Origin: Escherichia coli
GTDB taxonomy: Bacteria > Pseudomonadota > Gammaproteobacteria > Enterobacterales > Enterobacteriaceae
DNA length: 64,000 nt
NCBI RefSeq assembly: GCF_030384885.1
Contig: NZ_CP128613.1
Direction: 5' to 3' (one strand)
Shown here piece by piece: positions 50,452 to 59,623 of this stretch (within the stretch, counting starts at the first letter, position 1; every line of letters starts with the position of its first letter). The notes beneath the pieces were generated by a model. That model worked only from the letters and a program-made list of their open reading frames with translations. It was not told the origin of the DNA and ran no database searches. A program made the translations under genes and the position numbers.

Positions 50452-52084
50452 CCTACTGATAGCGATGATAATCTTTGCGCTATTCTGGCCAGCAACCGCG
50501 CTCAGAGCTGCAGTGAGCAAAACAACCTGGGCGGATGCACCGGCACGCGAGTTTGTGTTTGTCGAAAACAACTCAGACGACAACTTTTTCGTCACTCCTG
50601 GCGGGGCGCTGGATCCGCGCCTGACCGGTGCCAACCGCTGGACCGGTTTAAAATACACTGGCTCAGGAACCATCTATCAACAAAGCCTCGGCTACATTGA
50701 TAACGGTTACAACACCGGCCTTTATACCAACTGGAAGTTTGATATGTGGCTGGAAAATTCGCCGGTTTCATCTCCTTTAACTGGCTTGCGCTGCATCAAC
50801 TGGTACACAGGGTGTAATATGACCACCAGTCTTATCCTGCCGCAAACCACCGACGCCAGTGGATTTTATGGCGCGACGGTGACCAGCGGCGGCTCGAAGT
50901 GGATGCACGGCATGTTGTCAGACGCGTTTTACCAGTATCTGCAACAAATGCCCGTTGGCAGCAGCTTTACGATGACCATCAATGCCTGCCAAACCTCAGT
51001 GAACTATGACGCCAGCAGCGGCGCGCGCTGTAAGGATCAGGCCTCCGGCAACTGGTATGTTCGCAACGTCACCCATACGAAAGCAGCAAATTTGCGGTTG
51101 ATAAATACCCATTCGCTGGCGGAGGTATTTATCAACAGCGACGGAGTACCGACTCTGGGCGAAGGGAACGCCGACTGCCGGACGCAAACCATCGGCAGCC
51201 GTTCAGGATTAAGTTGTAAGATGGTTAACTATACCCTGCAAACAAACGGGCTCAGCAACACCTCAATCCATATATTCCCGGCGATCGCCAACTCGTCGTT
51301 AGCCTCGGCCGTCGGGGCGTACGATATGCAGTTCAGTCTGAATGGCAGTTCATGGAAACCGGTGAGCAATACCGCCTATTACTACACCTTCAACGAGATG
51401 AAGAGCGCAGACTCGATCTATGTTTTCTTCTCGAGCAACTTCTTTAAGCAGATGGTGAACCTGGGGATCAGCGATATCAACACCAAAGATCTATTCAACT
51501 TTCGCTTTCAGAACACCACATCACCGGAGTCTGGCTGGTATGAATTTTCTACCTCCAACACGCTGATTATCAAACCCCGTGATTTCAGCATCAGTATTAT
51601 CTCCGATGAATATACTCAGACACCGTCGCGAGAGGGATATGTCGGCAGCGGCGAACCGGCACTCGATTTCGGCTATATCGTAACCACCAGCGGTAAAACA
51701 GCTGCCGACGAAGTGCTGATCAAGGTGACCGGACCCGCGCAGGTGATTGGCGGGCGCTCCTATTGTGTCTTCAGCTCCGATGACGGTAAGGCGAAAGTAC
51801 CGTTCCCGGCGACGCTTTCCTTTATTACCCGCAACGGAGCTACAAAAACCTACGATGCCGGGTGCGATGATAGCTGGCGGGATATGACCGATGCGCTGTG
51901 GCTAACCACACCGTGGACTGATATCTCTGGCGAAGTGGGGCAGATGGATAAGACCACAGTCAAATTTTCGATTCCAATGGATAACGCCATTTCGCTGCGT
52001 ACGGTAGATGATAACGGCTGGTTTGGCGAAGTCAGCGCTTCAGGAGAGATTCATGTTCAGGCGACGTGGCGTAACATTAACTAA
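50441..52084 (+). CDS. ecpD: ECP pilus tip adhesin
   Basis: 547 aa, signal peptide; overlaps the ecpC stop. Confidence 0.9.
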
Positions 52085-52763
52085 GACCCTGCTGACAGTG
52101 GTCTGTATGCTGGCGACACCTTTGACACAGGCGATTTCGGTCGGCAATCTGACTTTTTCACTGCCGTCCGAGACTGACTTTGTCAGCAAACGTGTAGTGA
52201 ATAACAACAAAAGCGCGCGGATATACCGTATTGCCATCAGTGCCATCGATAGTCCAGGCAGCAGTGAATTGCGCACTCGACCGGTGGATGGTGAACTGCT
52301 TTTCGCTCCCCGCCAGCTGGCGTTGCAGGCTGGTGAGAGTGAGTATTTTAAATTTTACTATCATGGTCCACAGGATAACCGCGAGCGCTACTACCGGGTC
52401 TCATTTCGCGAGGTCCCCACTCGCAACCAGACAAGACGCAGCCCAACCGGCGGCGAGGTCAGCACGGAGCCGGTGGTGGTGATGGATACCATTCTGGTAG
52501 TACGACCTCGTCAGGTTCAGTTTAAATGGTCCTTCGACCAGGTGACAGGAACGGTAAGTAACACCGGCAACACGTGGTTTAAGCTACTGATTAAACCAGG
52601 ATGTGATTCGACCGAAGAGGAAGGCGACGCCTGGTATCTACGTCCGGGAGACGTAGTTCATCAGCCTGAGTTACGTCAGCCGGGGAATCATTATCTGGTC
52701 TATAACGACAAATTCATTAAGATTAGCGATTCCTGTCCTGCTAAGCCCCCTTCGGCGGACTAA
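52053..52763 (+). CDS. ecpE: ECP pilus second chaperone
   Basis: 236 aa from [11 protein letters not shown]; paralogous to EcpB (shared …RYYRI/RYYRV… motifs); overlaps the ecpD 3' end. Confidence 0.85.
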
Positions 52764-52923
52764 GACTTATCCATCGGACGAGGGAAGAATTCCACCTCAG
52801 AGACTCAAATAATCGTTTAAATGATGTGGAAGCGATCGTCAATGTCACCTGTAATGATGGGCTTTCTCATATGTACACCATAGTGTTCAGGAGACACGGA
52901 AAAGTGCCAGGCAGCCTGCTAAC

Positions 52924-53053
52924 GAGTGGTTTCTTCACGAATTAGTACGTAAAATCGGTAACGGCTGGAAATCATTCAATACTCACACTATCGAAAGTTC
53001 CCCAGCCAACCGCGGTACGTTCTTACATACGATGTACCGCTGTTCTCTTTACG
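52924..53053 (+). repeat. Copy A of a ~130-bp imperfect direct repeat (non-coding), upstream of ykgJ
   Basis: By-eye alignment with 57096..57227 gives roughly 75% identity, with shared blocks GAAATCATTCAATA(C/T)TC(A/G)CACTATC, CCAGCCAACCGCG and CATACGA. Confidence 0.5.
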
Positions 53054-53076
53054 ATTTATAGCTGTACTGGTGAATT

Positions 53077-53406
53077 ATGAGCAATCTGAATCCATGCATG
53101 ACGTGTGGTGCCTGTTGTGCATTTTTCCGCGTCTCTTTTTACTGGGCCGAAGCCGACGATGCTGGCGGTACCATTCCCGCCAGGCTCACTGAACAAATAT
53201 CCCCTTTTCACCGATGCATGAGCGGTACCAATCAGAAAAACCCCCGATGTATTGCCCTTGCAGGAACACCGGGCAAAAATGCCTGCTGCACGATATATAA
53301 AAATCGATCGTCCACGTGCAGAGAATTCGCCATGTCTGGTGAGAACGGAGAAGTCAATGAGGCTTGCAATCGTGCAAGAGCTAAATACGGGCTGACACCG
53401 TTATAA
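53077..53406 (+). CDS. ykgJ: Cysteine-rich putative Fe/Zn-binding protein
   Basis: 109 aa; CMTCGACC and further Cys clusters. Confidence 0.85.
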
Positions 53407-53428
53407 ATATGCAATAATTAATTGCACT

Positions 53429-53464
53429 GCCCCGCCAGCTATAATCGCGGGGCTTCGTTTTTCA
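53429..53464 (+). terminator. Rho-independent terminator of ykgJ
   Basis: Stem GCCCCGC / GCGGGGC followed by TTCGTTTTT. Confidence 0.65.
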
Positions 53465-53611
53465 GGGATAACAAAACCCGAAACTTCTTCCATCTGCCAG
53501 CAACAATGCCTCTTCCTCTATAGTGTTCTCCGGATCTACAGCATCCTGAAGTAGCGCGATGTACTCACTGGCTATCTGCATCAGAAAGTTAAAAACAATG
53601 TTTTTAACCTA

Positions 53612-53640
53612 TAAAAATGGCGCTGTATTTGCGCCATTTT
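53612..53640. terminator. Bidirectional terminator-like hairpin (AAAAATGGCGC … GCGCCATTTTT) 3' of yagU
   Basis: Perfect stem flanked by an A-tract and a T-tract. Confidence 0.5.
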
Positions 53641-53654
53641 TATCATTCAATGCA

Positions 53655-54269
53655 TTATCTGTTTGAGCCTAAAGGGATCTCAGGGTCTGGCTCATGAGTA
53701 ATTCTGTTTCGTAAATCTCTGCGAATAATTTCAATGGACCAGAACCAGACTAAATGTCCAAAAATTTCAGAAACATTCTCATACCACGGGAGATCAAACA
53801 GAGGTGGCGTCAGTCCCATGAGAGGGAATGAAATCATATGAACAAAAAGTTGGGCTAAAGCACCTGCCAGTAAGCCCTGCCAGAGTTTAATTTTTGGAAA
53901 TACTTCAGCGACCACACAATAACCGACAGCAAACACTATCGAAAAGATAATGTGCGTAACACCAACCCAGTTAAAGACATGCCCGGCAAAGGTATAAACA
54001 GCCGCATTGGGATCTGTCAGCCCCAGCCAGTCTCGAAGAAAAATATACGGAGGATTGAGAAAATTACGGGAGCAATCAATTTGCCCAGCAGCCCTGATTA
54101 ATGATTCCGGGCCACACGCTGCATTAAACATATCCACCGGGCTACGTGGCGGCAATGGAACTTCAGCCCCCCACTTCACAAATGCGGAAACAACGCCAGC
54201 AATTAGCCCAATGAATGCAGCAAGACCATAACGTCTGCGGTTCGGTGGAGTTTGTTCAAATATATTCAT
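53655..54269 (-). CDS. yagU: Inner-membrane protein (DUF1440)
   Basis: 204-aa multi-TM protein. Confidence 0.85.
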
Positions 54270-54331
54270 ATTTACCCTGTTTGTTTCATTATGTTGTACA
54301 CCTCTTCAGGAGTATTCATAAAACAAGATAA

Positions 54332-54500
54332 ATGTAAAGAACTGTATTGTTTTGTATAATGCAATGGTGACTAATCGCCAATTAATATAAGCACCATCAT
54401 TTCTCCATATTTTTATGTTAGAAGTGACAAGGAGAAATGTAATGTTTCTCTCAGAGAATATAAATCATTCCTTTTGCCCACCTTAATGGTGGGCTTTTTT
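54332..54500 (+). ncRNA. Candidate short transcription unit: promoter (perfect -10 TATAAT at ~54355), 14-codon ORF (MFLSENINHSFCPP, 54442..54486, SD AAGGAG) and intrinsic terminator (54476..54500)
   Basis: TATAAT preceded by TG; then an RBS-plus-mini-ORF whose stop sits inside a GC-rich hairpin (GCCCACC-TTAAT-GGTGGGC) followed by TTTTTT. Confidence 0.35.
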
Positions 54501-54865
54501 ATGCAAAACCTGAACACCCTGTGGTATTCCCCTGGCATTATCACTTTCGCGATTAACCAACAGCCAGACCAGCAAACACGCCACTACAGGCACAGCAAAA
54601 TCCATCAGGCTTGCCACACCCCATGCGTGCGGCTCAAAGCCGCCCCGCCATGGCATATTAATCCGCTTACCATTTTCGAACAGCTGATTGGTTTAGTCCG
54701 GTGTTTCCCTGCTTGCACTTAAAAATGAGCGGATGGGAAACTCTCGAAATGGTTCGTCGATATGCTCACCTTTCAGTCAGGCATTTCACCGCGCACGCGA
54801 GCAAAATCAAAGGCACATGAGGAGAATGTGGTTGACTTAAAAACGAGGAAACTTATTGATTTAAA

Positions 54866-54912
54866 TGGTGCCGATAATAGGAGTCGAACCTACGACCTTC
54901 GCATTACGAATT
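54866..54912 (-). tRNA. Pseudo-tRNA: 3' ~47 nt of a tRNA-Thr (thrW-like) = att core of an integrated element
   Basis: The minus strand reads …ATTCGTAATGCGAAGGTCGTAGGTTCGACTCCTATTATCGGCACCA (anticodon arm with CGU, T-arm GGTTCGACTCC, acceptor 3' strand + CCA); the 5' half (GCCGATA…) is absent, so this is a fragment. Confidence 0.75.
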
Positions 54913-55282
54913 ATAAGAATCCGTTTCTAATTCAAAGCATTACCACATCAACACTGCGCTCACACGTCCCACCACATCAAAACATGTAAAGCCTTGCAAG
55001 CCATTGTGAGGCCTTATGTGTCTCAGTTTTGTCCCACCTTGTATTACGACTTGCATAACCAATGAAGATAAACGTGACGACAAACGACGCAGCAGTCTTC
55101 TTTTCTTTCACACTTTCCCCACTCAGCATGCATACCTTCTACTATAACTGTAGTGAATGTCTGTTATGAGCGAGGAGCGGACTATCTTTCTGTGCTAAGC
55201 ACAGAAGTTTAAATTAATAAATAGAGATTAAGATGTTTATTGGTTACATTGATATTTATAATTTGATTGCCTTGAAATTCCT

Positions 55283-55322
55283 AAGCCGAATTCATGACGT
55301 CTTCATCACATGAATTCGGCTT
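55283..55322. terminator. Perfect 14-bp-stem hairpin (AAGCCGAATTCATG … CATGAATTCGGCTT) 3' of the 447-aa cargo gene
   Basis: Exact reverse-complement arms around a 12-nt loop, ~30 bp beyond the gene's stop. Confidence 0.55.
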
Positions 55323-55351
55323 ATGCATAATACTAAGTTGGTTTTATTAAG

Positions 55352-56695
55352 TCATTTCTTTGCCGCGCTTTTATTGCACTTCTTACAGCCTTCAATCAAT
55401 TTTTCAGTTATTATATAATAATAAGGAATGTAAATGTTTAACCCGCAAGTTTTAATCGAATCGAAAGCAAGAACTTTCACAATGGATTCTTCTCCATCTT
55501 TCTCCATTAGCAATATATCACTTAAAGGCAAATCATTAGGATTGTAAATCCTCACATCGCCAGGCTGTCTTTCATAGGCTTCGATGTCATCACCTGGTTG
55601 GCCATAGGCTAAATGAGTGGCTTTAATCCAGTTTATTGGTTCAGCATTTTGACACCAGGAGATTATTTTTTCTAATTTTTCAGGTGTGTAAGCTTTTACA
55701 TAATCTCCATGTTTTTCACATCTACCTAGTTCTGAAAAATGGCCCAGGGTGTATTCATAAGAATAATCACCAGCAGTCAATGGTAGTCTAAAGTATTGCT
55801 GAGGCAATGCCTTCTGGACTTTGGTTTTACTCAGCAAATTAAAGGTGATATCATAAAGTTGATATAGACAAACACCCTCTCGATCTGGATATCCATAAGG
55901 CTTGATGTCAGAAAGCATCTCAATATCAGAATTATAAACACTTGCATAATCATCACTTCCAAACATGAAAAAACCTTTTGATAGAATGAATATTGCATTA
56001 GGAAGAACGTTTTTTTCAAAATTCTGCGAGTGAGTTTTTATTTCTTGTACTATGTCCATCCAATCCATATCAGTATCATAGGCGAAGATAATTCCAAAAC
56101 CATTAGTCTGAATTCTCTCCTCTGAATGTATAAATATGTTCTGATTTATACCATGTTTCTTTAGTTTTTTGAATGAGCGGATATTTTCGAAAGCACTTTT
56201 CAGTTCTTTTTTTGTTAGTTTTGACTTAACCTGAATCACACCATAGCAGTACTCCACAGGTAAAACCTCAAAAATTTCCTGTCGCTGCATAAGCGAAAAT
56301 GAATTAAAAGCATCATAAAAAAGAATGTCGATTTCATTACTGAGATGTCCTGAGGTTGACGCTACACGGACACTTGATTTTGAGATGGCATAGCTTTGCG
56401 GTAAGAGTTTATTTTCATTGAAAAAGCATCTTAAGAGTTCCTCTCTGACAGTACCAACATCTCTTGGATGCTTAATATCTTTCGATATTTCAAAATCTTG
56501 AAGCATTTTCCTCTGTAAGTGAATGAACTCCCTTTCAAGACCATAAAATTCTTTATCTTTAGATCTCAGTTTGCTTGCACGAGAAACTTGATCGGATATC
56601 CATTCCTTTGTGCGAGACTCTCTCTCAGCAAAATCATCACGTTGTTTTTTTACAGCACCGGTCAAGCGTTTTCTTGTGTTTTCATTATCGGACAT
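55352..56695 (-). CDS. Hypothetical 447-aa protein of unknown function (AT-rich cargo gene; possible PD-(D/E)xK-like nuclease motif)
   Basis: Long uninterrupted ORF in visibly AT-rich DNA, K/E-rich N-terminus, a segment (…EIDILFYDAF…EYCYGVIQVKSK…) reminiscent of a restriction-endonuclease-like fold; stands alone between a terminator and the repeat/invertase region. Confidence 0.7.
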   Translation of the reverse strand: MSDNENTRKRLTGAVKKQRDDFAERESRTKEWISDQVSRASKLRSKDKEFYGLEREFIHLQRKMLQDFEISKDIKHPRDVGTVREELLRCFFNENKLLPQSYAISKSSVRVASTSGHLSNEIDILFYDAFNSFSLMQRQEIFEVLPVEYCYGVIQVKSKLTKKELKSAFENIRSFKKLKKHGINQNIFIHSEERIQTNGFGIIFAYDTDMDWMDIVQEIKTHSQNFEKNVLPNAIFILSKGFFMFGSDDYASVYNSDIEMLSDIKPYGYPDREGVCLYQLYDITFNLLSKTKVQKALPQQYFRLPLTAGDYSYEYTLGHFSELGRCEKHGDYVKAYTPEKLEKIISWCQNAEPINWIKATHLAYGQPGDDIEAYERQPGDVRIYNPNDLPLSDILLMEKDGEESIVKVLAFDSIKTCGLNIYIPYYYIITEKLIEGCKKCNKSAAKK

Positions 56696-57095: not shown

Positions 57096-57227
57096 CAGTT
57101 TCATTCATGCCGAAATACGGTAAAATCTATAACAGATAGAAATCATTCAATATTCGCACTATCAGAAGCTGGCCAGCCAACCGCGCACGATTTTGCATAC
57201 GACATGCTACGGTTTCATTTATCTCCG
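57096..57227 (+). repeat. Copy B of the ~130-bp imperfect direct repeat
   Basis: See copy A (52924..53053). Confidence 0.5.
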
Positions 57228-57814
57228 ACCGGAAACTTCTTATACAGTGTCGATACACCAACATCATAGATGATCTCCACCTTCTGGCGAGGAACGCCTG
57301 ATGCAATTAATCGCCCGGCCTGCGCCCTTTGTTCTGGTGTAAGTTTGGGACGACGTCCACCAATTCGTCCCTGTGCGCGAGCAACTTCCAGTCCAGCTTT
57401 TGTTCGTTCAACAATCAGTTCTCGTTCCATTTCAGCCAGGGCACCCATCACATGAAAGAAAAAACGCCCCATCGGTGTGCTGGTATCAATAGCATCCGTC
57501 AGGCTGCGAAAATTAACGCCACGTTCGCGCAACTCCTCAACCAGAATGACCAGATGGACAAGCGTGCCGGGACCGGGTTTATTCAGCGCTTCAATCAGGC
57601 GATCGCGCTGGTCAAAGCAGTCATCTCCCACCACATAAGCTGTGATGGACGGGCGGAAAGTGACTTTTCCCAGATCTTCGGTATAGGGCTTGTCGCGGTT
57701 CGGGTATTCATGTGTTTCCACACGGCGACCGGTTCCCGCACTTTCTTCTTCAACCTTAAACGGCACACCTCGAAATGACGCATCCTGAAGCCTGTCTTTC
57801 CACGTCATATACAC
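57215..57814 (-). pseudogene. Pin/Hin/Gin-family serine invertase C-terminal fragment fused to an unrelated N-terminus
   Basis: The C-terminal ~115 aa (…ELRERGVNFRSLTDAIDTSTPMGRFFFHVMGALAEMERELIVERT…RRPKLTPEQ…STLYKK) match the invertase core and HTH; the N-terminal ~85 aa show no resolvase catalytic-Ser region. Confidence 0.6.
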
Positions 57815-57821
57815 TCCGAAA

Positions 57822-57850
57822 ATAAAAAAGCCACCTATTAGAAGGTGGCC
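57822..57850 (-). terminator. Rho-independent terminator of the lipoprotein-like gene
   Basis: Stem GCCACCT / AGGTGGC followed on the minus strand by a T-tract (TTTTTATTTT). Confidence 0.6.
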
Positions 57851-57869
57851 TTGTAATGAATTTTATTAA

Positions 57870-58400
57870 TTAGCGAGTCAGAAACAACGAATCTTTATAC
57901 TTTTGCTGTTGTTCATTTAAATACTTAGCTGTTTCATCGCTGGCAAATGGAAATATTACCGTATTTTTAGGCATGGTAATTTCTTTTTTGTCCAGCGTCA
58001 GAGTAAACATAGGAACATACTGAGCAGAGTAACGCACCGCAGAAACGAGCTCTAGTTTAGACTCTTCAATAACACTTAAATTATCCAGGCTAACTTTCTC
58101 TTCATCTTTTTTCTTTGACGCATTTAAAGTTTTTATTACTTTATTTAATTTCTCCTGAAAATCCTCCTTAAAGTTTTCAGGATTGCCGTCGACAACAAGA
58201 ATCTGTTCACCCTGATTATCTGGAAAAATAATCTTTGCACTTATCAATTTATTTTCTTTATAAACATCACCAAGTTTTATGGCTCCTCCAGATAACTGAA
58301 TAATATGTTCATCTTTAAAGGAGATGTTGCCAGAGATTATGAGAGATGAAAAAATAGCCGCTGCTCCAAGAATTACACTTGCTGTGATATAGCCTTTCAT
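57870..58400 (-). CDS. Hypothetical signal-peptide/lipoprotein-like protein (AT-rich cargo)
   Basis: 176-aa ORF with an N-terminal hydrophobic segment (MKGYITASVILGAAAIFSSLIISG), Lys/Glu-rich, in visibly AT-rich DNA, with its own terminator. Confidence 0.6.
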   Translation of the reverse strand: MKGYITASVILGAAAIFSSLIISGNISFKDEHIIQLSGGAIKLGDVYKENKLISAKIIFPDNQGEQILVVDGNPENFKEDFQEKLNKVIKTLNASKKKDEEKVSLDNLSVIEESKLELVSAVRYSAQYVPMFTLTLDKKEITMPKNTVIFPFASDETAKYLNEQQQKYKDSLFLTR

Positions 58401-58491
58401 TTTTCGCCTATTAACATTTTTCTAAATGTGCATTAATTCTATCACTCTATTTATGACTTACAACCAGCAATACATGTGAGGGGAATCCTGG

Positions 58492-59623
58492 CTACCAAAA
58501 TCGGGTATAGCCAACATCGTGATTTATATCAATGCCACTGGAGCGTGTTTCCGTAACCCGCATACCTGGTGGCATATTTATAAATGATACCTTGATCTCA
58601 CCATCAACTTTTGGCGCGGTAGCTTTATTAATCATGAAGGGATTCGGGCCTGTGGCATCGGAGGCGTTGTTTGCCTGAGCCGGATCCACCGCCGGATAAG
58701 GAGTGTATCCCCGTGCCGGTATTCCCGTCTTCGATATTGTTGAAGGTGGCGCGATCGGTGTTCTGCACCATGTGCAACGGCACCCGGAACAGACGACAGA
58801 TTTCTTCAAGCTGAAACTTGCGGGTTTCCAGGAACTGGCTGTCCTCGGCGTTCAGCGCCATCGACTTCCAGTCCAGCCCCATCTCAAGGATCATCGGGCG
58901 GTGAGCATTACCAAGCCCGGTGTGACGCTCCTCAAAATCTTTCTTCAGGCGCTCATAAGCCTGATCCGACAGCGTCTGTTCTGTACGCAACACACCCGAC
59001 GTCACCGCGCCATTGCTGAACAGTCTGGCCCCGTGCTCTTCGGTCGCAGCTGCCAGCGATATTGCCTCACGGGCATAGGCGATGGGATTCAGTCCCACCA
59101 GACCGTCCAGCGTCAGCGTGCGCACATGCCAGATATCCTCCTGGCTCAGTACATCCGTGGAGCCATCCGGGAATGTGACCTGATAGACCGGCTCCCAGCT
59201 ACTGTTAAGCTTCGGTACCACACAGCCGGGATCGACGGGCAGCAGTTCAGCCACTTCGCCAAATGCTTTCACTTTGTAGGCGTAAAAGTTTCCCCGCAGG
59301 CACAGACAGGTGACCACCAGCTCCCAGAACTCCTGCGGCGTCATATAGCCATTGGGATGCGTGGAGATCAGCTTATGCAGACGTTCGCCAGTGGCTCTCT
59401 GCTTCAGGCTGCCGTTCAGGTGATACAGGTTGCAGGGCAACATCCCGACCGACTCCGCCAGCACCCTGACACAGGAAAAAACCGCCGTCAGTCGCATGGC
59501 CCGCTGGCTGCTGATCTGCTTTCCGGTATAGGTGTCGTAGGACAACCCGATGGCATCCGCCAGCTCTGCTGGCGTGGTCACCGGTGCGTCACTTTTTCGT
59601 TGAAATAATCCCGAAAAGAACAC
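58492..59623 (-). pseudogene. Phage portal protein (HK97 family), frameshifted and truncated
   Basis: ORF 58628..59623 (331 aa) is portal-like until ~58720, where it runs into a low-complexity tail; the continuation lies in another frame (58492..58809). Confidence 0.7.

What the first reader, a model, noticed from the sequence alone, without database searches (positions are those of the whole stretch)
57870..58400. AT-rich lipoprotein-like cargo gene with its own terminator inside the prophage remnant
The 176-aa ORF has a signal/anchor sequence, a Lys/Glu-rich body, strongly AT-biased codons and a clean intrinsic terminator (57822..57850), and sits where head genes would be expected. Such genes are often superinfection-exclusion or envelope-modifying factors.
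Basis: inference. Interest (0 to 1): 0.4.

Follow-up and report, generated by a model that had tools for sequence, protein, structure and literature searches.

The report
Membrane-anchored cargo gene in prophage remnant
This is a real, conserved accessory ("moron") gene of SfV/e14-like E. coli prophages that encodes an inner-membrane-anchored periplasmic protein of unknown fold, not a lipoprotein; it probably helps block entry of other phages, but that function is untested.

Summary
The 176-aa ORF at 57870..58400(-) is real. It is AT-rich (GC about 0.33 against 0.52-0.58 in the flanks) and followed by a strong terminator. Orthologues show purifying selection (dN/dS 0.07-0.2).

It has no cysteine, so it is not a lipoprotein. 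A 19-residue N-terminal hydrophobic helix and the flanking charges predict an N-in, C-out signal anchor with a periplasmic domain of about 145 aa. The AlphaFold model is confident (pLDDT 91). It has no significant PDB relative. Its one viral match is a lipoprotein of Pseudomonas phage ventosus.

The gene does not natively sit among head genes. In intact prophages it lies between the tape-measure gene and the Mu-N-like DNA-circularization gene. The window holds a remnant in which two deletions (portal::tape-measure and circularization::pinE) leave a 1175-bp island around it.

That slot is a cargo hotspot. It is empty in SfV, SfI and SfII. Elsewhere it holds other AT-rich genes, mostly for exported proteins, one from a PHROG labelled "Sie-like".

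The best reading is a moron-encoded envelope protein that probably excludes superinfecting phages, as HK97 gp15 does. It is a new member of a known kind and of moderate interest.

The parts
57870..58400 (-). 176-aa ORF (phrog_5485 family; identical to the E. coli 'hypothetical protein' WP_000679479.1 class)
   Evidence: Full-length match to phrog_5485, E 3.8e-108. dN/dS 0.07-0.2 among orthologues.
58332..58397 (-). Codons 2-23: N-terminal transmembrane helix (signal anchor; N-in, C-out predicted)
   Evidence: AlphaFold helix at residues 2-23. Kyte-Doolittle mean 2.1 over 19 residues. N-flank charge +2 against C-flank -1. In 62 of 65 family members the N-flank is the more positive. No Cys, hence no lipobox.
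57888..58304 (-). Codons 33-171: predicted periplasmic alpha/beta domain (beta-hairpin, two strands, helix, two strands, helix)
58436..58463 (-). Sigma-70 promoter-like site TTGTAA-16-TAGAAT with an extended -10 TG, 36 nt upstream of the ATG
   Evidence: 9 of 12 matches, but the scan is not enriched over shuffles. The 59%-identical orthologue L086 has TTGTCA-16-TATAAT, 11 of 12. Activity is not shown.
58405..58410 (-). Weak Shine-Dalgarno-like TAGGCG
   Evidence: Read directly from the sequence.
57817..57852 (-). Intrinsic terminator (10-bp stem, 6-nt loop, U-run), immediately upstream of the circularization-gene RBS
   Evidence: -15.6 kcal/mol, z -3.8. An equivalent terminator is present in all orthologues and in SfII, which lacks the gene.
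57836..58491 (-). Extent of the AT-rich cassette that differs from the SfII/SKA5 backbones (about 660 bp)
   Evidence: Backbone homology to SfII and SKA5 stops at 58492-58498 on one side and resumes at 57832-57835 on the other.
58492..58729 (-). C-terminal 238 bp of the tail tape-measure gene (remnant)
   Evidence: 99.8% identical to L001 11756-12930, which runs through the moron into the circularization gene. Annotated as tape measure in L001.
58728..58729 (.). Deletion junction, portal::tape-measure (2-bp overlap)
   Evidence: blastn breakpoints.
58730..59623 (-). N-terminal part of the portal gene (truncated)
   Evidence: Pfam Phage_portal, profile positions 2-251 of 321. Homology to the L001 portal.
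57555..57808 (-). N-terminal 254 bp of the Mu-N-like DNA-circularization gene (remnant)
   Evidence: Pfam DNA_circ_N at residues 9-87. blastn.
57553..57556 (.). Deletion junction, circularization::pinE (4-bp overlap), giving an in-frame chimera
   Evidence: The chimeric ORF 57215..57814 hits DNA_circ_N, then the Resolvase C-terminal half, then HTH_7.
57215..57553 (-). C-terminal part of the pinE-type invertase gene (lacks the catalytic N-terminus)
   Evidence: Pfam Resolvase profile positions 79-144 only, plus HTH_7. 99.4% identical to pinE of L010.

Best explanation
The ORF is the payload of a moron, an about 660-bp AT-rich cassette. Its native site is between the tape-measure gene and the Mu-N-like DNA-circularization gene of SfV/e14-like temperate myoviruses.

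It encodes a bitopic inner-membrane protein. An N-terminal transmembrane helix (N-in) anchors an about 145-aa alpha/beta domain in the periplasm.

I infer that it is transcribed from its own sigma-70 promoter in the lysogen. In this window that would be from a dead remnant that still keeps the whole transcription unit. I further infer that it acts at the periplasmic face of the inner membrane to stop incoming phages, most likely relatives with the same tail type. It would do so by interfering with the tape-measure/N-protein conduit that carries DNA across the periplasm and inner membrane. That is how HK97 gp15 and P22 SieA work.

Shown: the gene is real and under purifying selection; it is accessory; it lies in a cargo hotspot; the anchor and topology are predicted; the fold is unassigned.

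Inferred: expression in the lysogen, anti-phage activity, and the target.
For: (1) The gene is real and selected. dN/dS is 0.07-0.08 at 84-85% identity and 0.15-0.22 for close pairs. The profile search finds 78 cluster representatives with the same length and architecture.

(2) It is accessory. The slot is empty in SfV, SfI and SfII and in about 23 of a 60-row even sample of E. coli genomes carrying this junction. A 37.7-kb circular copy of an ORF-bearing phage exists in strain CX04.

(3) It has moron features. GC is 0.33 against about 0.55 in the flanks here, and 0.31-0.37 against 0.47-0.56 in all syntenic (tape-measure|N slot) orthologues. There is a promoter-like site and a terminator.

(4) It is predicted to face the envelope. 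It has a 19-residue hydrophobic helix, and the positive-inside rule is met in 62 of 65 members. The only structural relative is a genuine lipoprotein (lipobox LLTGC) of phage ventosus: Foldseek E 9.6e-7, hhalign E 1.2e-4.

(5) Guilt by position. The same slot alternatively carries four other AT-rich genes:
- a 164-aa protein with a signal peptide;
- a 225-aa lipoprotein;
- a TM-anchored OB-fold protein matching phrog_8545, 'superinfection exclusion Sie-like' (E 1.2e-41);
- a PH-domain protein.

(6) The cassette survives in independently degraded prophages with different breakpoints: the window, L002, L019, L046, L057, L073 and L075. In the window both deletions leave the promoter-to-terminator unit intact.

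(7) Distant members lie next to a prophage repressor with conflict-system genes, in an R-M/helicase island, and next to an integrase.

(8) There is precedent. The HK97 gp15 moron sits next to the tape-measure gene and encodes an inner-membrane exclusion protein with tail-specific action (PMC3594210). [quoted passage not shown]
Against: - There is no functional data of any kind.
- There is no sequence or structural similarity to any characterised exclusion protein. PADLOC, Pfam and NCBIfam give no hits, and the PDB gives nothing.
- The promoter evidence is weak. The scan finds no more sites than shuffles do, and the motif position is not conserved among orthologues.
- AT-rich genes in E. coli are often H-NS-silenced (general knowledge).
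- The terminator is a backbone feature, not clearly the cassette's own.
- Retention in remnants is biased by ascertainment, because the loci were found through the gene. Closely trimmed remnants are rare: at most about 5 of 178 complete E. coli genomes carrying the gene.
- The family keeps a tight association with tail modules down to 29-38% identity, including a second baseplate type where it overlaps the upstream gene by 4 bp. That could instead mean a lytic-cycle, tail-linked role.
- The PHROG 'Sie-like' label on the neighbouring cargo type is an annotation, not a tested function.
Confidence: 0.45

Rival explanations
1. It is an envelope cargo protein with a host-fitness role unrelated to phage entry. 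One possibility is an orphan immunity-type protein against a periplasm-acting toxin (colicin M immunity Cmi is also a TM-anchored periplasmic protein). Another is a serum-resistance, stress or adhesion factor like lambda Bor or Lom.
For: The same structural evidence applies: a TM-anchored periplasmic domain, moron features, retention in remnants, and homologues outside phage tail modules. Few residues are invariant (G39, L43, G44, E49, N93, Y124, L134), which fits a binding protein rather than an enzyme. Morons are known to carry such functions (PMC3594210).
Against: No similarity to Cmi, Bor, Lom or any immunity family in Pfam or the PDB. No toxin gene is adjacent. Linkage to tail modules in two different tail types has no explanation under this model.
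Confidence: 0.2
2. It is a lytic-cycle function tied to the tail module, read through from the late operon. It might be a membrane-anchored helper for tail-tip or tape-measure handling. It might instead be a late-expressed block that stops progeny from injecting into already infected or lysed cells (as T5 Llp does), rather than a lysogen-expressed defence.
For: The position directly after the tape-measure gene is conserved from 99% down to 33% identity. A 29%-identical member sits inside an E217/Pam3-type baseplate cluster with a 4-bp overlap to the upstream gene. It is on the same strand as the late genes in every tail-module (prophage) context inspected. The phage has a Q-like antiterminator that could read through the terminator.
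Against: The gene is absent from viable, isolated relatives: SfV, SfI and SfII have an empty slot, and SKA5 carries a different gene there. The slot is interchangeable with unrelated genes, one on the opposite strand. The gene is kept intact in remnants that have lost the tail, head and baseplate genes. Family members occur away from any tail genes.
Confidence: 0.15
3. It is a decaying hitch-hiker with no current function, preserved only because the deletions happened to miss it.
For: The prophage around it is clearly degraded. One copy in a noisy assembly is frameshifted.
Against: The ORF is intact here and in 66 of the 67 copies compared. dN/dS is well below 1. The architecture is conserved across 78 cluster representatives. 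Several independent remnants keep the whole unit.
Confidence: 0.05

Closest known systems
HK97 gp15 moron (superinfection exclusion; YebO-like)
   Same: An AT-rich moron inserted in the tail operon right next to the tape-measure gene. It encodes a small inner-membrane protein that is dispensable for the virion. Per PMC3594210 it is expressed from the prophage and blocks DNA entry in a tail-specific way.
   Different: There is no sequence relationship: no Pfam hit, including to the YebO family. gp15 lies upstream of the tape-measure gene in a siphovirus and is much smaller (own knowledge, not checked here); I know of no report of a folded periplasmic domain. This protein lies downstream of the tape-measure gene in a Mu-type contractile tail module and has an about 145-aa periplasmic alpha/beta domain. 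Its function is untested.
P22 SieA
   Same: A prophage-encoded inner-membrane protein. It blocks DNA delivery by interfering with the periplasm-spanning conduit of related phages only (PMC10883804). This is the mechanism proposed here.
   Different: No homology was detected, and the genomic location differs. The target here would be the tape-measure/N proteins of a myovirus rather than podovirus ejection proteins. All of this is inference.
Pseudomonas phage ventosus lipoprotein CNR37_00111 (UniProt A0A2H4P829)
   Same: It is the only significant structural match (Foldseek E 9.6e-7, TM 0.53/0.63) and a probable remote homologue (hhalign E 1.2e-4 over 125 columns). It shares the motif 'II.T..G.V.(L/V)G.V..E' after the anchor and the 'F/Y.(L/I)K' C-terminus. 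It is envelope-anchored and phage-encoded.
   Different: It is anchored by a lipobox (LLTGC) rather than a TM helix. It is 144 aa. It sits among early or middle genes of a 97-kb phage described as lytic (PMC8537276; gene map). Its function is unknown.
phrog_8545 'superinfection exclusion Sie-like' OB-fold protein (Pfam tRNA_anti-like PF12869) of E. coli prophages
   Same: It occupies exactly the same tape-measure|circularization slot in sister prophages. It is AT-rich and has an N-terminal TM anchor.
   Different: It has an unrelated fold and is encoded on the opposite strand. The 'Sie-like' label is a database annotation that I could not trace to an experiment.
T4 Sp (spackle) and Imm
   Same: From established knowledge: small membrane-anchored proteins acting in the periplasm or at the inner membrane to stop genome delivery by contractile-tailed phages. 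Sp targets the tail-tip lysozyme.
   Different: They are genes of a virulent phage expressed early in infection. No similarity was detected in any search here.

Membership tests
Bacterial lipoprotein | Lipobox [LVI][ASTVI][GAS]C at the end of the signal peptide | tested here: not met
   The protein contains no cysteine. One family member has a chance IVGC inside its TM helix at residues 6-9.
Moron (Juhala/Hendrix sense) | Present or absent between otherwise homologous phage genomes | tested here: met
   The flanks are about 95% identical to SfV, SfI and SfII, which lack it. About 23 of 60 sampled E. coli junctions are empty.
Moron (Juhala/Hendrix sense) | Base composition distinct from neighbouring genes | tested here: met
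   GC 0.32-0.34 against 0.52-0.58. The same holds in all syntenic orthologues.
Moron (Juhala/Hendrix sense) | Own promoter | tested here: inconclusive
   A 9/12 match with an extended -10 at 58463..58436, and an 11/12 match in orthologue L086. The scan shows no excess over shuffles, and there are no expression data.
Moron (Juhala/Hendrix sense) | Own terminator | tested here: inconclusive
   A strong terminator is present. An equivalent one occupies the empty site in SfII, so it may belong to the backbone.
Moron (Juhala/Hendrix sense) | Expressed from the repressed prophage | not testable with these tools
   Needs RNA-seq, 5'-RACE or a reporter in a lysogen.
phrog_5485 (PHROGs family, unknown function) | Full-length match to the family HMM | tested here: met
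   E 3.8e-108, residues 1-176 on profile positions 1-176. Distant members also match.
Superinfection exclusion protein (functional class) | Blocks infection at or after adsorption, before DNA entry, when expressed alone | not testable with these tools
   Needs plating, adsorption and DNA-entry assays.
HK97 gp15 / YebO family | Sequence homology to YebO/gp15 | tested here: not met
   No Pfam family matched the protein at E<=1. No family was shared among the 65 relatives, only eight unrelated single-member chance hits.
i-spanin (Rz-type) | Signal-anchored periplasmic coiled-coil protein with a partner o-spanin lipoprotein gene, located in the lysis cassette | tested here: not met
   The predicted domain is an alpha/beta sandwich, not a coiled coil. 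There is no Cys, no embedded or adjacent lipoprotein ORF and no Pfam hit. The prophage has its own lysis cassette elsewhere.
Phage structural / tail-assembly protein | Homology to a virion or assembly family, and required in all related phages | tested here: not met
   No Pfam, PHROG-function or PDB match. Absent from isolated phages SfV, SfI and SfII.
Known anti-phage defence systems (PADLOC-DB v2) | Match to a PADLOC model | tested here: not met
   0 families at E<=1.

The most novel reading that the evidence does not exclude
The junction between the tape-measure gene and the Mu-N-like gene of SfV/e14-like myoviruses may be a previously undescribed exclusion hotspot. I found no description of it in the held literature. 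It exchanges unrelated, mostly envelope-targeted cargo genes. The phrog_5485 family would then be a new class of signal-anchored periplasmic exclusion protein with an unassigned fold. It would have TM-anchored and lipoprotein-anchored versions, and it would jam the tape-measure/N-protein DNA-delivery conduit of contractile-tailed temperate phages. Its genetic linkage to the tail module would reflect tail-type-specific self-exclusion that travels with the module it targets.
Probability: 0.3. Interest if true: 0.55.

Novelty: new member of a known kind. Interest (0 to 1): 0.38.

Why it matters
If the protein does block phage entry, it would add a new, structurally unassigned family to the short list of characterised inner-membrane or periplasmic exclusion proteins. 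It would also do so for Mu-type contractile tails, whose route across the periplasm is poorly understood. Escape mutants would point to the phage component that contacts the inner membrane.

The slot itself is present in about 20% of complete E. coli genomes. About 16% of those junction-bearing records (173-178 genomes) hold this gene. The slot would be a convenient place to mine for further envelope-acting prophage cargo.

If the protein has no phage phenotype, this remains an ordinary uncharacterised moron.

Tried and rejected
- Lipoprotein: rejected, because there is no Cys.
- Phage structural, head or tail protein: no match in Pfam, NCBIfam or PHROG functional categories, and the gene is absent from SfV, SfI and SfII.
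- Known defence system: no PADLOC hit.
- Spanin: rejected on fold, the lack of a partner gene and the location.
- tblastn against 50,697 phage records found no match. The family is known only from prophages and metagenomes, plus the remote ventosus homologue.
- Literature: the protein accession appears in no held paper. The SfIV paper's 'moron' is a different locus, between Q and the lysis genes. The Tai tail-assembly-interference paper is not related to this slot.
- The search for related loci with the 65-sequence alignment failed because the alignment is too diverse.
- An exact search for the window's circ::pinE junction 30-mer in GTDB representative genomes found nothing. No complete E. coli genome has the window's double-deletion arrangement.
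- 'Selective retention in remnants' as proof of benefit: considered and downgraded. The loci were ascertained through the gene, and closely trimmed remnants are rare among complete genomes.
- Rfam: only sub-threshold chance hits.

Full report
**The observation.** The ORF exists exactly as described, at 57870..58400 on the minus strand: 176 aa with an ATG start. NCBI's pipeline annotates the same ORF in E. coli as a hypothetical protein. GC is 0.32-0.34 across the gene, against 0.52-0.58 on both sides. Directly after the stop codon lies a 10-bp stem, a 6-nt loop and a U-run at 57852..57817. This hairpin folds at -15.6 kcal/mol, z = -3.8 against shuffles. A promoter-like site, TTGTAA-16-TAGAAT with an extended -10 TG, lies at 58463..58436. 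The scan of this 2-kb region finds no more such sites than shuffled sequence does, so this alone is weak. The protein has a hydrophobic N-terminus, and K+E make up 20% of its residues. It has no cysteine, so it cannot be a lipoprotein.

**It is a real gene.**
- Orthologues at 51-60% identity occur in prophages assigned to Leclercia and Lelliottia and in metagenomes.
- Pairs at 84-85% identity give dN/dS of 0.07-0.08. Close pairs give 0.15-0.22.
- A profile search of 1.8 billion representatives finds 78 clusters. Nearly all are 165-205 aa and match end to end.
- All members share an N-terminal hydrophobic helix, a 'G.V.LG.VY.E' motif just after it and a 'Y.SE..P.F.L' motif. Only about seven positions are near-invariant, which fits a binding protein rather than an enzyme.
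- No Pfam family is shared among the 65 members scanned; eight unrelated families matched one member each at marginal E-values.
- The query matches PHROG 5485, function unknown, over its full length.
- NCBIfam and PADLOC give nothing.

**Where it really sits.**
- In intact prophages the gene lies between the tail tape-measure gene and the Mu-N-like DNA-circularization gene of an SfV/e14-like temperate myovirus. Examples are E. coli S51 (L001) and EH10-18-47 (L010).
- The same position holds for orthologues at 53% identity, 38% and 33%.
- The window carries a degraded copy of the EH10-18-47-type prophage.
- One deletion joins the portal gene to the last 238 bp of the tape-measure gene, at 58728/58729.
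- A second deletion joins the first 254 bp of the circularization gene in frame to the C-terminal half of pinE, at 57553-57556.
- Both junctions show 2-4 bp of overlap.
That is an artefact of the first deletion.
- The two deletions leave a 1175-bp island that contains the complete promoter-to-terminator unit.
- No complete E. coli genome has this exact arrangement.

**The slot is a cargo hotspot.**
- This type of tape-measure/circularization junction occurs in 1097 of 5426 complete E. coli genomes. Of these, 173-178 carry this gene.
- I classified a 60-row even sample of those records, with results as follows:

| Slot content | Rows |
|---|---|
| This gene | 10 |
| Empty | 23 |
| 164-aa protein with a cleavable signal peptide (phage SKA5 type, phrog_8976) | 7 |
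| OB-fold protein on the opposite strand | 7 |
| PH-domain protein | 1 |
| 225-aa lipoprotein (LLGGC) | 1 |
| Match to the circularization gene only | 11 |

- These classes rest. Only one of the seven SKA5-type rows was checked by sequence (L105); the other six are assigned from their identical span. The OB-fold rows are assigned from PGAP's product label, three of them inspected directly.
- The full-length OB-fold protein has an N-terminal TM helix. It matches Pfam tRNA_anti-like and phrog_8545, which PHROGs label 'superinfection exclusion Sie-like'.
- All of these cargo genes are AT-rich, with GC 0.31-0.42 against 0.54.
- SfV, SfI and SfII have an empty slot. SfII has an annotated terminator in the same position relative to the circularization-gene RBS. 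Every orthologue has one there too, with a different stem sequence. The terminator is therefore at least partly a backbone feature rather than clearly the cassette's own.

**The protein.**
- A 19-residue window starting at residue 5 has a mean Kyte-Doolittle value of 2.1.
- The N-flank carries +2 and the C-flank -1. In 62 of 65 family members the N-flank is the more positive side.
- By the positive-inside rule this predicts N-in, C-out, a signal anchor with the body in the periplasm.
- An I-S-G|N site is compatible with signal peptidase I. The hydrophobic stretch runs right up to it, so cleavage is uncertain.
- AlphaFold2 on the 15-sequence alignment gave pLDDT 65. On the 65-sequence alignment it gave pLDDT 91.3 and pTM 0.75.
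- The confident model has a TM helix at 2-23, a beta-hairpin at 33-42, strands at 46-59 and 66-72, a helix at 74-93, strands at 114-126 and 132-143, and a helix at 149-171.
- Foldseek against viral models gives one significant hit, a 144-aa protein of Pseudomonas phage ventosus (E 9.6e-7, probability 1.0). I located it in the genome as CNR37_00111.
- That protein starts MKRLLFLGITALLLTGC, a true lipobox, and continues with the family motif. hhalign supports remote homology: E 1.2e-4 over 125 columns.
- So the domain occurs with either a TM anchor or a lipid anchor. That independently argues it works outside the cytoplasm.

**Other contexts.**
- A 29%-identical member sits inside a different (E217/Pam3-type) baseplate cluster. 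It is again AT-rich (0.33 against 0.52) and followed by a terminator, but it overlaps the upstream gene by 4 bp.
- More distant members lie next to an S24 repressor and conflict-system genes, next to a methylase/helicase/nuclease island, next to csrA and an integrase, and beside ordinary chromosomal genes.

**Population patterns.**
- Several degraded prophages with different breakpoints keep the cassette: the window, E. coli CFSAN061772 at ssrA (L002), and IMG/VR loci L019, L046, L057, L073 and L075.
- This is suggestive only. The loci were found through the gene, and closely trimmed remnants number at most about 5 of 178 complete genomes.
- Among 41 haplotypes, nucleotide diversity is 0.0028 in the ORF, against 0.0205 in the tape-measure gene and 0.0222 in the circularization gene.
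- The simplest reading is that the flanks recombine with the large pool of phages lacking the cassette, while the cassette can come only from carriers. A recent spread of the cassette is also possible.
- A 37.7-kb circular record in strain CX04 is a whole phage genome carrying the gene and a Q-like antiterminator. This suggests carriers can excise and that late transcription could read through the terminator.

**Interpretation.**
- I rate it at about 0.85 that this is an accessory, moron-type gene for an envelope protein.
- What it does is inferred. The best-supported mechanism is superinfection exclusion at the inner membrane or periplasm, directed at the DNA-delivery conduit of related contractile-tailed phages.
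- Four lines support that mechanism:
  - the predicted topology;
  - the exported nature of most alternative cargo in the slot, one with a Sie-like label;
  - the precedent of the HK97 gp15 moron next to the tape-measure gene, which acts in a tail-specific way (PMC3594210);
  - the precedent of P22 SieA (PMC10883804).
- Linkage to the tail module would make sense if the protein excludes phages with the same tail type.
- I put this specific function at about 0.45.
- The rivals are an envelope protein with a non-phage role such as toxin immunity or serum or stress resistance (0.2), a late-expressed tail-linked or progeny-protecting function (0.15), and a functionless hitch-hiker (0.05).
- None can be separated without experiments.

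**Verdict.**
- The lipoprotein label and the positional reasoning are wrong.
- The cargo interpretation is right.
- The exclusion idea is reasonable but unproven.
- It is a new member of a known kind, a moron-encoded envelope protein, from an uncharacterised family with no assigned fold.
- The hotspot it occupies is the more interesting by-product.

Noticed in passing
window 55352..56695 (-): A 447-aa AT-rich (GC 0.31-0.38) protein with a DUF6602 / PD-(D/E)xK domain. It matches the PADLOC 'PD_DExK' and NucC-type effector models (E 2e-27 to 2e-16). It sits just beyond the pinE end of the prophage, the position held by mcrA in K-12 e14 (from my own knowledge). It is a candidate stand-alone defence nuclease. 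The same gene sits next to pinE in intact prophages (L010).
   Followed up: partly
window 57215..57814 (-): An in-frame chimeric ORF created by a deletion. Residues 9-87 are the DNA-circularization N-terminal domain. They are fused to the C-terminal half of a PinE-type serine invertase (Resolvase profile positions 79-144 plus HTH_7). The recombinase catalytic N-terminus is missing, so it is presumably inactive.
   Followed up: partly
window 58492..59623 (-): The portal gene, truncated after about 298 codons, is joined to the last 238 bp of the tape-measure gene. The 2-bp overlap at 58728/58729 suggests illegitimate recombination. All head, sheath, tube and chaperone genes are lost.
   Followed up: yes
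L001 10177-14021 equivalents in 42 loci (window 57555..58729 region): Nucleotide diversity in the cassette is about 8-fold lower than in the flanking tape-measure and circularization genes (0.0028 against 0.0205-0.0222). This may reflect flank recombination with cassette-less phages, or a recent spread of the cassette.
   Followed up: partly
L064 5577-6283: One IMG/VR prophage has an about 706-bp insertion exactly between the cassette's terminator and the start of the circularization gene. This is further evidence that the junction tolerates or attracts insertions. The content of the insert was not examined.
   Followed up: no
L104 (NZ_CP081716.1, whole record): A 37.7-kb circular 'plasmid' in E. 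coli CX04 is a complete SfV/e14-like phage genome carrying the cassette, with a dusA fragment at its attachment region. Many frameshifts suggest a noisy assembly of an excised phage rather than a plasmid.
   Followed up: partly
L003 12013-13808 (also L004-L006): The Leclercia-type prophages carry two extra genes (about 503 aa and 94 aa, no Pfam hits) between the circularization gene and the baseplate hub gene. The E. coli prophages lack them. This may be a second variable spot in the tail module.
   Followed up: no
window 52000..55400: The chromosomal flank (ecpD/E, ykgJ, yagU, an integrase fragment) is at best about 97% identical to complete E. coli genomes. In the window the prophage end follows yagU directly, whereas strain EH10-18-47 has paoABCD in between. 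The source is probably a divergent Escherichia lineage or has a further deletion.
   Followed up: partly
window 57821..57903 (-): A sub-threshold Rfam hit to Phe_leader (27.8 bits against a gathering score of 55, E 0.14) overlaps the terminator. It is almost certainly chance similarity of a terminator hairpin.
   Followed up: no
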